IMG/VR virus record: IMGVR_UViG_3300028833_000072
Strand: one strand, 5' to 3'
Source of the DNA: a virus
Taxonomy: Duplodnaviria; Caudoviricetes
Length of the DNA: 64,000 bases
This document shows positions 11,976 to 15,170 of this stretch, in pieces; the first letter of the stretch is position 1, and the number at the start of each line of letters is the position of its first letter. The notes beneath the pieces were generated by a model. That model had not been told where the DNA came from, did not search any database, and saw only the letters and a program-made list of their open reading frames with translations. The translations under genes were made by a program, and so were the position numbers.

Positions 11976-14900
11976 TTATTTTTTATCTTTAAGTAATTTA
12001 TACAATCTAGCTAATGTACGTTTTTTAATAACAGATACACGTGATTGACTAATATTAAGAATTTTACCGATTTCTTGCTGTTTCTGATAATTTATTAAAA
12101 ATCTCTGCTCAATAAACTTCATTACGAATTTCTAATCTCTTTCTTCCTTAGAATTAATATATCATCAATTATATAAAATCTTATATAATTTTTTCATCAC
12201 TATTAATTAATCTTAATATATGTAACTACTTTAATGATATATTTAAAAACTAATATTCATAAATTAATTCAATATATATTTATCTTTTATATATATTATA
12301 ATCAATTCATAAAATCAATTTCAAGATTAAATCTCCAGTTAGTTAAACTAACTTTATTCGTATAGGCGTCACCAGGCCGCCTCTAATGTCTAAAATTTTC
12401 TTAACATCTTCTTTTAACCTAGATAATATCTTTTTATCTATTATTTGTTCTCCACAAATCAGATGTTCTTCATTTACAACATTACTTATAATATTACTTA
12501 TTTCTTTATTTAATAAAGCTTTTCTCATTATATTTAATGATCCATTTACATCTGCATTAATTTTTATATTATTATTCGTTTTATATAAACCTTTTCTTCT
12601 TATACCTGAAAATATTATTTTTTTTAATTCAACTTTATTTTTTATTGTTCTTAATGCATTCTTATCATAAGTAAATATATAATCATTATTTATAAAATTA
12701 GCTTTACTTGTATAACTTTCTTCTTGCATTATCAATTTTATATTTTTCTCTTCACATCTATATATTAATTGTTCTTTTAACTTATAAAATGGTATATTAG
12801 TTATTTTTTGATTACTTTTCTTTCCTAAATCTATATTTTGTTTCATACCTTGATTATATCCTAATATAATTATATGTATATCATTTTGTAAACAATATTT
12901 TACTATATAATTACATGTTTTATTAATATAATCATATATTCTATTATTTCGTTTATATGTAATATTATACATTTGCTTACTATAATGTATTTGATTATTT
13001 TTATTTTTATCTTCATTTAATTTCTTTTTTAAAAATTTAATTCTTTTATTATACCATTGATTATAAGATTTCAATTTTTTACCATCTATAATAAATGCTC
13101 TAAATTTATTTTTTAATTTTTCATATGGTTTATAAATAGTACAAGTAGTTAAATTATTAATTCCTAAATCTATAGATAGAATATTGAAATTATTATTTTC
13201 TTTAACCTGAGCTAAAGGATCAATTTGATCTTTTTCTTTTTCAAAATAATAATGGATTTCTATATACTTAGCCTTATATTTAGGAGTTATTCTTATTTGC
13301 CTTATTTTTTTATTTTCTAATATATGAAATATTTGTATTTTTATTCTATCATTTATTTTCATTAAATCATGTTCTTTTAAAAATTGATAACTCATTGGTA
13401 TAGTATAATATAGTTTATTATTAATTTTATTTATCCTTTTATCATCTTCAGAATCTATTAATTGAAAATATCCATCTTTATCAAGATATCGTGGCATATT
13501 GCATTTTATTTTTTTCTTTTTTAATGCTACAAAACTTTTAAAAGTTTCATATACTATTTTTAATATTTGTTGTGCACAAGCTGCTTGTATATACTTATAA
13601 TTATTTGAATTTTTTAGCATATTATATAAATCATAATAACTAATATATTTTCTATCTTTTTTTTCTTTATTTTGATTATCAAAGAAATTCTGTCTTAAAA
13701 TATAAAGTGCTTCATTAAATAAATTTTTTGAATAATGCAACATTTCTTTTAAAATATTGAAATATTGTTTATATTTTTTATAAGTAAGTTTTTGTTTAAA
13801 AATACTATAAGTAATATCCATTTTTTTATTATTAGACATTAATATTTTCACCTCCTTTATATTTATTAATAATATATTAAGAAGATGAAAATATAATAGT
13901 TTATTGAAAGAATTTAATTTTTAATAATATTTAAATCTCTCTATAAATGAGAGCAAAGGCTAAATCATTAATATACATATTATATTATTAATGATTTCAA
14001 TGAAAGATTTACTAAAAATTAGTCGTTAAATTAATATATATAAATTTATACATATTAAATATTGATACTATTCTAAAAGAATTATATACCAATAATTAAA
14101 TTAATTATGATACTTACTTTTATATCCTTGTAAAGTTAATTCTAAAATTTGTCTCTGCTTTACACTAATACGAGAACAAATATAATCACTATAAATCTTA
14201 GAATCAGTATAATCAATTTCATGAGAAACAATTTCTTCGTTATCTGATGTTTCAGCATTACCAAAATCCTGAATTTCAACCTAATATTTTTTAAAATATT
14301 TATTTATATCTTAAAAATTTATACCAATTAAACTCCCTATTTCTGAAAAAAATATTATCGTATTAAATAAAAATTTTCATTATAAATAACTTTACTATAT
14401 TTACATTTGCTTACTTGTTATTTAATAGTTAAATAGAATTTTTCTTTTTTTTATAATTAGTATTTTTCTTTTTAAGATTTTTATTAATAATTATTCACTT
14501 CTACAATTTTATACTTTATATATTATTTATATATAATAATTAAAATCATAATAAGCAAAATAATATTAATTATTTATAAATATTTTAAATAATTATATTT
14601 TAACTTTAATTAAAATATAGATTATATCATTAATATATATAAGATATATATAATTAATAATTCTATAAAAATATACAAAAATTAATCGTTAAATTTAAAT
14701 AAATATAAAAATTTAAATAAATTATTGATTTACTATATAATATAGTTGTACCAATAAATAATTAAATAATTCATCCCGCAATTAGGATGTTCTCGTTTAC
14801 GTTTAGTATAAAATCGCTGAATAAAGGCCCGAAGCTTAATAATCATGTTCTTAAATAAATATCTATCAAATGGAATAAATCCATTATTCCAATATGGATC

Positions 14901-15170
14901 ATATTGTTCAGAAAAATAAATAAAATAAAGATATGATTGTTGAAAAAGATCTTCCTTATTAAAACCTTTCCAATTAGCTAACTTATTAACTATACGAATC
15001 ATTTTTTCTTCATAACGTTCCCAAATTAATTCAGGATTATTAATAACATCATAATATTCTTCTTCAAAAGGTATAATTTTAACTTGTATTAAATGAGAAT
15101 CTTTGCTACGAGTAGCCATTTTTGCGGTTACTGGAGGCTTAAACCCATCATCATATTTAGTTCGAGCCAT
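11976..15170 (-). CDS. Sigma-70-family (sporulation-type) RNA polymerase sigma factor; 3 exons 15170-14784, 14280-14122, 12083-11976 (217 aa)
   Basis: Region-2-like EDLFQQSY...YDP...F..Y in exon 1; in-frame joins REHP|VEIQD and LQGY|KQQEIGKILNISQSRVSVIKKRTL (region 4.2 HTH). Confidence 0.85.
12084..14121 (-). mobile_element. Group I intron 2 of sigma gene carrying tnpB (IStron-like, 2038 nt)
   Basis: P1 GAUAU/GUAUC with U•G; P4 UAUUGG/UCAAUA; R UUAACGACUA; ends ...UUAUCAG; tnpB enclosed by inverted repeats; in-frame exon join GY|KQQE. Confidence 0.8.
12343..13851 (-). CDS. tnpB: TnpB (IS200/IS605-family RNA-guided endonuclease)
   Basis: SKNLFNEALY; RuvC-I SIDLG; QEESYTSK; RuvC-III INADVNGSLNI; AAGGAGG RBS; no Zn-finger cysteines. 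Confidence 0.9.
   Translation of the reverse strand: MKILMSNNKKMDITYSIFKQKLTYKKYKQYFNILKEMLHYSKNLFNEALYILRQNFFDNQNKEKKDRKYISYYDLYNMLKNSNNYKYIQAACAQQILKIVYETFKSFVALKKKKIKCNMPRYLDKDGYFQLIDSEDDKRINKINNKLYYTIPMSYQFLKEHDLMKINDRIKIQIFHILENKKIRQIRITPKYKAKYIEIHYYFEKEKDQIDPLAQVKENNNFNILSIDLGINNLTTCTIYKPYEKLKNKFRAFIIDGKKLKSYNQWYNKRIKFLKKKLNEDKNKNNQIHYSKQMYNITYKRNNRIYDYINKTCNYIVKYCLQNDIHIIILGYNQGMKQNIDLGKKSNQKITNIPFYKLKEQLIYRCEEKNIKLIMQEESYTSKANFINNDYIFTYDKNALRTIKNKVELKKIIFSGIRRKGLYKTNNNIKINADVNGSLNIMRKALLNKEISNIISNVVNEEHLICGEQIIDKKILSRLKEDVKKILDIRGGLVTPIRIKLV
14281..14783 (-). other. Group I intron 1 of sigma gene (503 nt, no intact ORF)
   Basis: P1 CAUCCU/GGGAUG with U•G at the splice site; P UUAUUGG / Q UCAAUAA; R UUAACGAUUA; S AUGAUAUAAUCU; ends AUUAG; in-frame join. 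Confidence 0.85.

What the first reader, a model, noticed from the sequence alone, without database searches (positions are those of the whole stretch)
12084..14121. TnpB carried inside a group I intron in a phage sigma factor (IStron-like RNA-guided homing intron)
Seen in sequence: the intron core lies at the 5' end and is followed by an intact tnpB with its own RBS, then ~260 non-coding nt ending TCAG exactly at the 3' splice site. Inverted repeats (13898-13907/12109-12118 and 13917-13927/12092-12102) loop out the ORF, as for intron-encoded endonucleases. No tnpA is present in the window. Established: IStrons fuse group I introns with IS605/IS607 elements, and TnpB guides come from the 3' flank. 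Inference: the guide is exon 3 (AAACAGCAAGAAATCGG) and the TAM is the end of exon 2 (..GGATAT), so TnpB would cut intron-less sigma alleles of co-infecting phages in place of a homing endonuclease. The predicted P7 has one mismatch (GACUA/UAGCC).
Basis: partly seen in the sequence, partly recalled or inferred. Interest (0 to 1): 0.8.

Follow-up and report, generated by a model that had tools for sequence, protein, structure and literature searches.

The report
TnpB-carrying intron in phage sigma gene
A sigma-factor gene of an uncultured, very AT-rich giant phage is split by a self-splicing-type intron that carries an RNA-guided nuclease gene (tnpB) but no transposase; this is a phage variant of the known "IStron" elements, and whether the nuclease copies the intron into intron-free phages is plausible but untested.

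Summary
On the minus strand, a sigma-70-type gene has three exons (15170-14784, 14280-14122, 12083-11976). Uninterrupted homologues fix both junctions to the base. The 2038-nt intervening sequence (14121-12084) has these parts:
- a reduced group I core at its 5' end, with a P1 guide sequence matching exon 2, a U·G pair at the splice site, and P4-P9 helices with compensating changes;
- an intact tnpB with its own ribosome-binding site;
- a 259-nt structured, conserved tail that ends TCAG.

Two perfect inverted repeats loop out the ORF.

It is one of at least six related introns in this 159-kb contig. Five carry tnpB: two in the portal gene, one cut by the contig end. Close copies sit at other sites in related phages. 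Similarity always runs from splice site to splice site. Upstream flanks are conserved within each subfamily, and downstream flanks are unrelated. No tnpA was found.

It is best read as a transposase-less, IS605-type (group A-like) IStron. Splicing, guide-RNA ends, TAM and homing were not tested. The sampled intron-free sigma alleles differ from the predicted guide at 2-4 of 20 positions.

IStrons are already described, including tnpB-only and phage-borne ones. This scan has noted phage IStrons on other DNA before.

The parts
14784..15170 (-). Sigma factor exon 1 (129 codons, ends ...KREHP, DNA ...CATCCT)
   Evidence: Alignment with uninterrupted homologues P0001-P0013. Boundary located.
14281..14783 (-). 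Intron 1: a 503-nt ORF-less group I-type intron of the same family. It is a deletion derivative of a D-type tnpB intron and keeps remnants of about 40 tnpB codons and the last ~60 nt. IGS GGGAUG pairs with exon CAUCCU; the intron ends UAUUAG.
   Evidence: (R1 hit, 104 bits). It is absent from 95-96% identical alleles P0014/P0015.
14122..14280 (-). Sigma factor exon 2 (53 codons, VEIQDF...LTLQGY). Its last 5 nt, GATAT (14126-14122), form the 5' strand of P1 and are the predicted TAM.
12084..14121 (-). Intron 2: the whole 2038-nt tnpB-carrying, IStron-like element.
   Evidence: Copies at other sites are similar from end to end.
14109..14113 (-). Internal guide sequence GUAUC. It pairs with exon GAUAU, with a U.G pair at the splice site.
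   Evidence: The IGS covaries with the exon across copies: GUAAU with AUUAU in L027; GUAAC with GUUAU in L022 (read by eye from the sequence; the automatic P1 table picked a different helix for L022); GGGAU with AUCCU; GUUGCU with AGCAAU.
13937..14108 (-). Reduced group I core, P2-P9. P4 is 14093-14089 with 14064-14060; P5 hairpin 14082-14070; P6 about 14059-14031; P7 5' strand within 14027-14019; P8 13995-13964; P7 3' strand within 13963-13957; P9 13954-13937.
   Evidence: Covariance model R1. Pair counts: 91.5% paired against 77.6% in shuffles, and 26 pairs with changes on both sides against 13.4; no shuffle out of 500 reached either value. Coordinates.
13898..13927 (-). 5' arms of the two inverted repeats (outer 13927-13917, inner 13907-13898). 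With their partners they close off the ORF-containing loop next to P9.
12343..13839 (-). tnpB: 498 codons plus stop, ribosome-binding site at 13857-13849. RuvC residues D (IDLG), E (QEESYTSK) and D (NADVNG) are all present. There are no zinc-finger cysteines.
   Evidence: dN/dS is 0.21-0.28 between close copies.
12084..12384 (-). Candidate omega (guide) RNA scaffold, 301 nt. It has a GC hairpin at 12381-12365 inside the end of tnpB, a closing stem 12362-12356 with 12129-12123, internal AT-rich hairpins, and a terminal hairpin that overlaps the 3' arms of the inverted repeats.
   Evidence: Fold of -68.9 kcal/mol, z = -6.4, no shuffle out of 100 as good. This region is as conserved as, or more conserved than, the tnpB coding sequence between copies. 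A matching long-range stem, with one fully compensated base pair (A-U in five copies, U-A in copy B), appears in the C/B-type copies.
12084..12118 (-). 3' arms of the inverted repeats (inner 12118-12109, outer 12102-12092) and the 8-nt tail AUUAUCAG. The last intron base (omega-G) is at 12084.
11976..12083 (-). Sigma factor exon 3 (KQQEIGKILNISQSRVS..., region 4 helix-turn-helix, plus stop). Its first ~16-20 nt (12083-12064, AAACAGCAAGAAATCGGTAA) are the predicted TnpB guide and target.
   Evidence: The 16-mer occurs once in the contig.

Best explanation
The 2038-nt insert is a transposase-less, IS605-type (group A-like) IStron. It combines a miniaturised group I ribozyme, a tnpB gene and the guide-RNA region of that gene.

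Shown from sequence:
- The element interrupts the sigma gene exactly between two codons of the conserved region-4 motif LQGY|KQQEIG.
- tnpB and its structured 3' region lie in a loop closed by two inverted repeats, 8 nt before the 3' splice site.
- The whole unit, not tnpB alone, is what recurs at other sites.

Inferred:
1. The primary transcript has two mutually exclusive fates.
   a. If the inverted repeats pair, the 3' splice site is brought to the core. The intron then splices out, as does intron 1, and a 217-aa sigma factor is made.
   b. If the 3' arms instead fold locally into the terminal hairpin, the last ~300 nt plus the first ~16-20 nt of exon 3 form an omega RNA bound by TnpB.
2. 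That complex recognises the sequence GATAT followed by AAACAGCAAGAAATCGG. This sequence exists only in an intron-free sigma allele, because in the carrier phage the two halves are 2 kb apart.
3. During co-infection, the cut allele is repaired from the intron-bearing genome, or the competing phage is damaged. The nuclease therefore acts as the intron's homing endonuclease.

My confidence that this is an IStron-type element is about 0.9. My confidence in the RNA-guided homing step is about 0.5-0.55.
For: Junctions: uninterrupted homologues fix them.

Group I features:
- The P1 guide sequence covaries with the upstream exon in at least 7 different exon/IGS combinations (plus the L022 pairing read by eye).
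- The core helices are 91.5% paired against 77.6% in shuffles, and against 33-48% when the partner is slid by 1-3 columns. 26 of 42 pairs show changes on both sides.
- The P7 G-C pair is invariant in 17 of 17 sequences.

Inverted repeats: they sit at a constant position, with four different but complementary sequences, each followed by an 8-9-nt tail ending in G.

TnpB:
- It scores above NCBIfam's curated cut-off.
- The catalytic D, E and D are invariant.
- dN/dS is 0.21-0.28.

3' region: z = -6.4, and its conservation is equal to or higher than that of the coding sequence.

The mobile unit is the whole element:
- A-type copies in other genes (L027, L025) match from splice site to splice site.
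- The same holds for C-type copies at 5 or more sites.

Flank pattern typical of IS605 elements and IStrons:
- Upstream flanks are conserved within a subfamily: GATAT, ATTAT, GTTAT, GATAC for A-type; ATCCT three times, AACCT twice, AACCA and ACCCA for C-type.
- Downstream flanks are unrelated.

Further agreement with described IStrons:
- The 3' end is TCAG, as in group A IStrons (PMC4227781).
- GC-normal relatives L011 and L012 (TnpB 40% identical) have canonical R and S elements, end GGTTCAG at an exon, and have an inverted repeat (AACCTCCC with GGGAGGTT) that overlaps the last guide-RNA hairpin.

The sigma site is polymorphic: it is empty, holds an ORF-less intron, holds a degenerate tnpB, or holds an intact tnpB in related phages.

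No tnpA is present in the contig. With nothing to excise the element, the published role of TnpB in restoring an excised transposon cannot explain the selection on tnpB.
Against: - No RNA or biochemical data exist. Splicing, the ends of the omega RNA, the TAM and cleavage are all untested.
- P7 of this copy has an A.C mismatch next to the G-binding pair. Copy L027 has a perfect pair at that position, and L025 has A.G. Splicing of this copy may therefore be impaired.
- No intron-free allele matching the predicted guide perfectly was found. The nearest ones have 2-4 mismatches in 20 nt, including position 3 or 6. An exact search for the spliced or empty junction in JGI metagenomes found nothing.
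- About 38 nt lie between the closing stem and the splice site, and they contain the intron's own 3' arms. An omega RNA that ends earlier cannot be excluded.
- A 95%-identical allele (L019) has the same intron without tnpB. That could also be read as the empty state of a nested insertion sequence.
- The contig is only about 32% of the genome, so a tnpA elsewhere is possible.
- Conserved upstream flanks are equally well explained by IGS-directed reverse splicing.
Confidence: 0.6

Rival explanations
1. Nested element. A tnpB-only insertion sequence (IS1341-like) sits inside the P9 loop of an older ORF-less intron. Its omega RNA ends inside the intron, near ...GAGATTAG at about 12132, and guides TnpB to ORF-less copies of the intron rather than to intron-free sigma genes.
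For: - L019 and L020 carry the same intron at the same site without tnpB. The difference from the window is one block running from TTCTTAATA... to ...GAGATTAG.
- Two other copies (D, I1) end in TTAG.
- Homing-endonuclease genes are known to invade introns in this way (discussion in PMC4227781).
Against: - GAGATTAG reads GAGATTAA in L027 and L025, so it is not a conserved terminus.
- The sequence just after the block (ATTCGTA) pairs with the end of tnpB in the predicted fold, and its equivalent does so in C- and B-type copies.
- The tnpB block never appears with a foreign intron backbone. Backbone and tnpB subfamilies go together at 16 or so sites.
- A more distant allele (L022) has a decayed tnpB at the same site whose tail runs to the splice site. 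Loss in L019 is therefore the more economical reading.
- Intron 1 shows directly that such internal deletions happen.
Confidence: 0.12
2. Regulatory or domesticated use. TnpB and the 3' RNA no longer drive DNA homing. Instead they control splicing, and so the timing or level of sigma (and portal) expression. This would follow published IStrons, where the omega RNA fold and TnpB binding repress splicing.
For: - The terminal hairpin and the inverted-repeat stems use the same nucleotides, so the two folds exclude each other.
- In the C. botulinum IStron, splicing is repressed by TnpB and by the omega RNA fold alone (bioRxiv 10.1101/2023.11.20.567912).
- The introns sit in a transcription factor gene and in late structural genes.
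Against: - All three RuvC catalytic residues are invariant across copies that are about 50% identical. Nuclease-dead regulators would be expected to lose them.
- ORF-less and intron-free alleles of the same gene exist in close relatives, so the gene does not depend on tnpB.
Confidence: 0.1
3. Classical transposition in trans. The copies are non-autonomous IS605-type IStrons, moved to new GATAT- or ATCCT-like sites by a TnpA encoded elsewhere in the phage or its host. TnpB would have only its published role of restoring excised copies.
For: - The contig is about 32% of the genome.
- A complete phage that carries a GC-normal relative (L012) also has a Y1 tnpA directly followed by a 379-aa ORF in tnpB position (not itself searched), about 10 kb away.
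- The conserved upstream and variable downstream flanks are the IS200/IS605 signature (PMC4227781).
Against: - No tnpA or tnpA fragment is found in 158.8 kb holding five copies, nor in the 167-kb relative holding six.
- Upstream flanks differ between subfamilies, and the IGS has co-adapted to each.
- This explanation is compatible with homing rather than opposed to it.
Confidence: 0.1
4. Dead end. This copy no longer splices because of the P7 A.C mismatch. The sigma gene would then be a pseudogene, or be expressed as fragments, with tnpB a decaying passenger.
For: - The mismatch lies next to the G-binding pair.
- Rfam gives no hit.
- At least one sister copy has a broken tnpB: L027 is split into 114-aa and 353-aa ORFs, and one copy in G001 has six stop codons.
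Against: - All three exons stay open and are 95-96% identical in protein to alleles that lack intron 1.
- tnpB is intact and under purifying selection.
- The same P7 position also varies in L025, another copy with an intact tnpB ORF.
- The inverted repeats are perfect.
Confidence: 0.06

Closest known systems
Group A (IS200/IS605-type) IStrons: CdISt1 / CdiIStrons of Clostridioides difficile and relatives (PMC4227781; bioRxiv 10.1101/2023.11.20.567912)
   Same: - Group I core at the 5' end, followed by tnpB and its guide-RNA region.
- Splice sites coincide with the ends of the element.
- The upstream exon ends in U, paired to G inside the IGS stem.
- The 3' terminus is TCAG.
- The upstream flank is conserved and AT-rich; the downstream flank is variable; there is no target duplication.
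- A short inverted-repeat stem loops out the insertion-sequence part.
- Full-length tnpA is often missing: none of the 8 copies in C. difficile 630 has one.
   Different: - Host is an uncultured jumbo phage at about 22% GC.
- The core is reduced: no P7.1 or P7.2, and the core from 5' splice site to P9 spans about 185 nt.
- No tnpA fragment at all.
- Upstream motifs are GATAT, ATCCT and GCAAT rather than TTGAT or TTTAT. ATTAT occurs in one sister copy.
- Several subfamilies with co-adapted IGS live in one genome.
- The guide-RNA region is expanded by AT-rich hairpins.
Group B (IS607-type) IStrons, including CbISt3 and CbISt4 in C. botulinum phages c-st and D-1873, and the studied CboIStron
   Same: - Phage-borne IStrons exist, and tnpB-only forms exist.
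- TnpB with its omega RNA cleaves the TAM-plus-downstream-flank joint.
- The omega RNA fold and splicing are mutually exclusive.
   Different: - Those elements insert after GG, end in CGG, and splice after a G.
- They are linked to a serine-recombinase TnpA.
- The present element ends TCAG and splices after U.
Phage group I introns with a protein homing endonuclease in a peripheral loop (for example T4 td with I-TevI, from my own knowledge; the PhiPA3 intron endonuclease, PMC11620839)
   Same: - The intron sits in a conserved codon block of an essential phage gene.
- The ORF is looped out of the ribozyme.
- Occupancy varies between relatives, and ORF-less derivatives exist.
- A possible role in competition between co-infecting phages.
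   Different: The nuclease is RNA-guided. Its target would be set by the downstream exon rather than by protein-DNA contacts. That would let one intron family colonise many unrelated sites.
IS200/IS605 TnpB-omega RNA systems such as ISDra2 (PMC8612924; PMC10055086)
   Same: - The TnpB family and its RuvC catalytic triad.
- A guide RNA that starts in the end of tnpB and runs to the right end of the element.
- The logic of TAM plus downstream flank as the target.
   Different: - No TnpA partner.
- This TnpB clade has no zinc-finger cysteines. The same is true of its bacterial relatives P0130 and P0141.
- The element is embedded in a ribozyme.
Compact ORF-less group I introns of jumbo gut (Jug) phages (PMC12880540)
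   Same: Many small group I introns split essential genes of AT-rich animal-gut jumbo phages. In that study, splicing was supported by RNA reads for about half of those tested.
   Different: That paper's text does not mention TnpB or IStrons at all. Here, five of the introns in 159 kb carry tnpB.

Membership tests
Group I intron | P1 helix between the end of the upstream exon and an internal guide sequence, with U.G at the 5' splice site | tested here: met
   GAUAU pairs with GUAUC, and U.G is at position -1. The IGS covaries with the exon in at least 7 combinations across copies (plus the L022 pairing read by eye). Exceptions among sister copies: L025 has C-G, L007 has A-U, and L008 has U.U.
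Group I intron | Terminal G (omega-G) at the 3' splice site | tested here: met
   All 11 mapped copies end in G: CAG or TAG.
Group I intron | Conserved core helices P3-P9, including the P7 G-binding pair and R/S-like elements | tested here: inconclusive
   P4, P5, P6, P7, P8 and P9 are supported by covariation. R-like AACGACUAA and S-like GAUUUAGCC are present. P3 could not be assigned. P7 of this copy has one A.C mismatch. The alignment used for counting was fitted to the model.
Group I intron | Match to a curated covariance model (Rfam RF00028) | tested here: not met
   No hit even at E<10. The model also misses L011 and L012, which have canonical R and S elements, so it is insensitive for this subgroup.
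Group I intron | Self-splicing activity, or a spliced RNA | not testable with these tools
   No RNA data are available. An exact search for the junction in JGI metagenome contigs found nothing.
IStron, group A (IS605-type) | A group I intron at the 5' end fused to an IS200/IS605-family tnpB, with element ends that coincide with the splice sites | tested here: met
   Copies at other sites are similar from end to end.
IStron, group A (IS605-type) | 3' terminus TCAG | tested here: met
   The element ends ...AUUAUCAG. Sister copies end TCAG, and two end TTAG.
IStron, group A (IS605-type) | [quoted passage not shown] | tested here: inconclusive
   The upstream flank here is GATAT. Sister A-type sites have ATTAT, GTTAT and GATAC. 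Other subfamilies have ATCCT-like flanks and GCAAT. Downstream flanks are unrelated. The pattern is the same as in known group A IStrons, but the motifs only partly overlap.
IStron, group A (IS605-type) | A Y1 tnpA gene or a remnant of one | tested here: not met
   None in the element or in the 158.8-kb contig.
IStron, group A (IS605-type) | Intron of subclass IA2 (with P7.1 and P7.2) | tested here: not met
   Only about 25 nt lie between P7 and P8, and there is no P7.1 or P7.2 hairpin. GC-normal relatives L011 and L012 do have them. I read this as a reduced derivative.
RNA-guided TnpB | Full-length match to TnpB family models | tested here: met
   NF040570 scores 135.9 bits (cut-off 100) over profile positions 2-389 of 389. 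PF01385 and PF07282 score above their cut-offs.
RNA-guided TnpB | RuvC catalytic D, E and D | tested here: met
   D228 (IDLG), E377/E378 (QEESYTSK) and D434 (NADVNG) are invariant in all aligned copies and in bacterial relatives. Assigning these motifs to the catalytic triad rests on my own knowledge. No solved structure aligned by sequence.
RNA-guided TnpB | CxxC...CxxC zinc finger in the TNB domain | tested here: not met
   There are no cysteines between RuvC-II and RuvC-III. The same holds for named bacterial TnpBs of this clade (P0130, P0141), so this is a trait of the clade and not decay.
RNA-guided TnpB | An omega RNA that overlaps the end of tnpB and ends at the boundary of the element | tested here: inconclusive
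   The 301-nt 3' region is conserved and strongly structured (z = -6.4). The RNA ends have not been mapped.

The most novel reading that the evidence does not exclude
In these giant gut phages, TnpB has taken over the role of the protein homing endonuclease for a whole radiating family of miniature group I introns. The guide is whatever exon lies downstream, and the ribozyme's guide sequence can co-adapt to the TAM-like upstream flank. The same element has therefore been able to settle in many essential genes: sigma, portal (twice) and others, at about 16 mapped sites in a few relatives. It may now spread by RNA-guided homing, or attack intron-free competitors, during co-infection with no transposase at all. 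The same 3' nucleotides would switch between a splicing fold and a guide-RNA fold.
Probability: 0.4. Interest if true: 0.8.

Novelty: new variant of a known kind. Interest (0 to 1): 0.55.

Why it matters
IStrons are the one place where a ribozyme, a transposon and an RNA-guided nuclease share a single sequence. Published work covers clostridial and Bacillus chromosomes and two prophage-like clostridial phages. The suggestion that tnpB-only IStrons home like introns remains untested (PMC13565253).

This element gives that question a natural setting. Several tnpB subfamilies sit in essential genes of lytic-type jumbo phages, where co-infection supplies intron-free targets. No tnpA has been found in the available ~32% of this genome or ~34% of the close relative. 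Occupancy in the population varies: the site is empty, holds an ORF-less intron, holds a decayed tnpB, or holds an intact one.

It also matters for annotation. The sigma and portal genes of such phages are called as fragments, and the standard Rfam model does not see these introns.

Finally, compact zinc-finger-less TnpBs with new TAM-like flanks (GATAT, ATCCT) may interest genome-editing researchers.

Tried and rejected
- Rfam. At gathering score and at E<10, only chance snoRNA and miRNA hits appeared. Rfam also missed the canonical cores in L011 and L012, so I did not use it as evidence against an intron.
- Single-protein searches of viral contigs. Sigma exon 1 and TnpB both found nothing. 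An alignment query was needed.
- Exact search for the spliced or empty junction in JGI metagenome contigs: 0 hits.
- Sequence search of the PDB. It gave nothing with TnpB alone and only a marginal hit with the profile. No structure prediction was run.
- Plain MAFFT columns put the AT-rich helices of copies B, A and L022 out of register. I therefore built a covariance model and counted pairs on its alignment. That alignment leans towards the model.
- Model R1 does not reach the GC-normal IStrons L011 and L012, even with filters off. The link between the two groups rests on TnpB similarity and shared layout, not on the RNA model.
- I considered a group II intron and rejected it: there is no GUGYG start, the upstream exon ends in U, and the intron ends in G.
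- I considered GGGAT to be an exon or TAM motif, then rejected that once homologues showed it is the IGS of introns I1, C and D.
- I considered an internal right end at GAGATTAG and rejected it as the less likely reading.
- P2 and P3 could not be assigned with confidence.
Full report
**What the window is.** The window is the last 64 kb of a 158,834-bp viral contig with about 22% G+C. CheckV estimates the contig at 32% of the genome. Gene order around the finding is subtilase, M16 peptidase, sigma factor. The same order occurs in metagenome contigs of up to 372 kb, and the sigma factor resembles gp3 of Bacillus phage G. This is a jumbo phage.

**The split gene.** Everything relevant is on the minus strand.
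- The ORF at 15170-14733 looks like the N-terminal two thirds of a sigma-70-type factor.
- A 53-codon frame lies at 14280-14122.
- The small ORF ending at 11976 hits Pfam Sigma70_r4.
- A search of the large protein collection returned uninterrupted homologues of 224-236 aa, up to 76% identical.
- Aligned with the three pieces, they show continuous sequence across ...KREHP|VEIQDF... and ...LTLQGY|KQQEIGKILNISQSRVS....

The exons are therefore 15170-14784, 14280-14122 and 12083-11976. Two intervening sequences separate them: 14783-14281 (503 nt, no ORF) and 14121-12084 (2038 nt).

**The cargo.**
- The ORF at 13839-12343 has an AAGGAGGTG ribosome-binding site.
- It matches Pfam OrfB_IS605 and the Cas12f1-like TNB domain.
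- It matches NCBIfam guided_TnpB over the full profile, above the curated cut-off.
- The three RuvC motifs (IDLG, QEESYTSK, NADVNG) are invariant across all copies and in bacterial relatives.
- The usual zinc-finger cysteines are absent. They are also absent from named bacterial TnpBs of the same clade, so this is a clade trait and not decay.
- Between close copies dN/dS is 0.21-0.28, so the protein is under purifying selection.

**Is it a group I intron?** Rfam gives no hit. It also fails on related loci L011 and L012, which carry textbook GUUCAACGACUA and AAGAUAUAGUC elements. I therefore worked from comparison.

The contig holds five tnpB copies, 49-55% identical to this one in protein. Two lie in the portal gene, and one is cut by the contig end. 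Intron 1 of the sigma gene is an ORF-less relative. More copies came from related phage contigs: L007, L008, L019, L022, L025, L027, L034 and L035.

All copies share the same layout:
- The upstream exon pairs with a guide sequence a few nucleotides into the intron. That guide sequence changes with the exon: GAUAU with GUAUC here; AUUAU with GUAAU; GUUAU with GUAAC (read by eye); CAUCCU with GGGAUG; AGCAAU with GUUGCU. In all five mapped copies of this contig, and in most of the others, a U.G pair sits at the splice site.
- Every copy ends in G.
- I built a covariance model from P4, P5, P6, P7, P8 and P9. It finds all training copies. It also finds untrained ORF-less members, including an intron at a third site of the sigma gene in other phages.
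- On the resulting 18-sequence alignment, 91.5% of cells pair against 77.6% in shuffles. When the partner is slid by 1-3 columns, 33-48% pair. 26 of 42 pairs show changes on both sides, and none of 500 shuffles reached the observed values.
- The alignment is fitted to the model, so these numbers lean its way. The compensating changes in P4 (UUAUUG/CAAUAA, UUAUUA/UAAUAA, UUAUGG/CCAUAA) and in P7 (GAUUA/UAAUC, GACUA/UAGUC) are nevertheless visible in the raw sequences.
- P3 could not be assigned, and there is no P7.1 or P7.2. The core is a reduced form.
The 91%-identical sister L027 has A-U at that position, and L025 has A.G.

**How the ORF is looped out.**
They lie just after P9 and just before the 3' splice site.
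- An equivalent stem of 11-15 bp occurs in 9 of 11 copies. It starts at intron position 187-200 and is followed by an 8-9-nt tail ending in G.
- It comes in four different sequence versions that stay complementary.
- This corresponds to the "IR stem" drawn for IStrons in PMC4227781.

**The 3' region.**
- The 301 nt from the GC hairpin in the last codons of tnpB to the splice site fold with z = -6.4.
- The fold has a GC hairpin and a closing stem (UACGAAU at 12362-12356 with AUUCGUA at 12129-12123). It also has internal AT-rich hairpins and a terminal hairpin that uses the same nucleotides as the 3' arms of the inverted repeats.
- C- and B-type copies have the matching long-range stem, with one fully compensated base pair.
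- Between copies, this region is as conserved as the coding sequence or more so.
- Two mutually exclusive folds therefore exist. One brings the 3' splice site to the core. The other looks like a TnpB guide-RNA scaffold. Such a conflict has been shown experimentally for the C. botulinum IStron (bioRxiv 10.1101/2023.11.20.567912).

In favour of that scenario: a 95%-identical sigma allele (L019, L020) has the same intron at the same site without tnpB. It differs by one block that ends ...GAGATTAG.

Against it:
- Copies with 91% and 78% identical TnpB sit in two other genes (L027, L025). They match this element without a break from 5' splice site to 3' splice site, and GAGATTAG reads GAGATTAA in both.
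- The sequence just right of the block is one strand of the closing stem.
- A more distant sigma allele (L022) has a decayed tnpB at the same site whose tail runs to the splice site.
- Intron 1 is demonstrably an internal-deletion derivative that keeps tnpB remnants.
- Across about 16 mapped sites, intron backbone and tnpB subfamily always go together.

Flanks show the IS605/IStron pattern. Upstream flanks are conserved within a subfamily: GATAT, ATTAT, GTTAT and GATAC for A-type; ATCCT, AACCT, AACCA and ACCCA for C-type. Downstream flanks are unrelated. The 3' end is TCAG. PMC4227781 describes this pattern for group A IStrons, which insert after TTGAT, ATTAT or TTTAT and end in TCAG.

**Transposase.**
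- Neither a Y1 transposase nor a serine recombinase is found in the 158.8-kb contig.
- No Y1 transposase is found in the 167-kb relative that holds six tnpB copies.
- A complete 155-kb phage carrying a GC-normal relative does have a Y1 tnpA, directly followed by a 379-aa ORF in tnpB position, elsewhere in its genome.
- Both AT-rich contigs are about a third of their genomes, so absence is not proven.

**Mechanism.** By analogy with IS605 elements and IStrons (PMC10055086; bioRxiv 10.1101/2023.11.20.567912), the guide would be the first 16-20 nt of exon 3 and the TAM the end of exon 2.

That composite sequence exists only in an intron-free allele. In the carrier, the target is preceded by ...TTATCAG. 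With no transposase to excise the element, selection on tnpB is most simply explained by homing into intron-free genomes, or damage to them, during co-infection.

This step is inferred. The intron-free alleles I could retrieve keep CAAGGATAT (L013, L015, L024) or have CAGGGCTAC (L017). They differ from the predicted guide at 2-4 of 20 positions through synonymous changes, including position 3 or 6. No perfect target has been seen.

**Comparison with what is known.** IStrons were described in 2000 and surveyed in 2014. tnpB-only forms and copies in C. botulinum phages are listed in that survey (PMC4227781). A 2026 review states that tnpB-only IStrons imply intron homing, pending experiments (PMC13565253). 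The jumbo gut phage paper reports thousands of small group I introns, but its text does not mention TnpB. Full-text searches found no report of tnpB-carrying introns in jumbo-phage genes.

Earlier notes of this scan describe similar transposase-less phage IStrons on other genomes. I did not check those.

I file this as a new variant of a known kind. It is group A-like, miniaturised and AT-rich, lacks any detected transposase, and has diversified into several TAM/IGS specificities within one phage.

Noticed in passing
G000:C1:89026-94945 (just upstream of the window; loci L002, L004, L032): The portal gene (phrog_16240) is cut into at least four exons. Two of the interruptions are tnpB-carrying introns (copies B and D). 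A third short intervening sequence at about genome 92003-92219 gives only a weak hit to my intron model (E 0.49).
   Followed up: partly
window 14281-14783: Intron 1 of the sigma gene is an ORF-less deletion derivative of a D-type tnpB intron. It keeps about 40 degenerate tnpB codons, the AUAC...GUAU closing stem and the last ~60 nt. It is absent from 95-96% identical alleles (P0014, P0015).
   Followed up: yes
L022:2936-3142, L024:449-675, P0016: The sigma gene of this phage group is an intron hotspot. Besides the two sites used in the window, relatives carry introns after ...WERY in exon 1 and probably within FKNMIIKL. That makes at least four insertion sites in a gene of about 220 codons.
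   Followed up: partly
L004:1483-2958 (copy D, genome 90053-91528): The tnpB frame of copy D is open for 492 codons but has no ATG, GTG or TTG in the first ~84. Either it uses a non-standard start or its N-terminus is damaged.
   Followed up: no
L007:1209, L008:1224, L025:2223, L034: Some sister copies break the rule of U.G at the 5' splice site. The upstream exon ends in A (L007, L034 copy 1) or C (L025), or its U faces a U in the guide sequence (L008). These boundaries rest on reading frames only. They recall the unusual splice sites of group B IStrons.
   Followed up: partly
L030:8991-9211, L030:5818-6037, L031:10631-10832 (genome about 46991, 43818 and 67631): Further ORF-less members of the same intron family elsewhere in the contig, found with model R1 (E 6e-5 to 6e-3). 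Their host genes were not examined.
   Followed up: no
L034:2957 and sigma site 2 (window 14122-14130): A B-like tnpB intron in the related 167-kb phage sits after the same 9 nt, CAAGGATAT (codons ..LQGY), as sigma site 2, but in a different gene. This is consistent with a short upstream motif directing insertion, rather than the gene.
   Followed up: no
L033 (G003:C1:62790-66149): A complete 155-kb phage that carries a GC-normal tnpB IStron (L012) also has a Y1 tnpA directly followed by a 379-aa ORF in tnpB position (not itself searched), so probably an autonomous IS605, about 10 kb away.
   Followed up: partly
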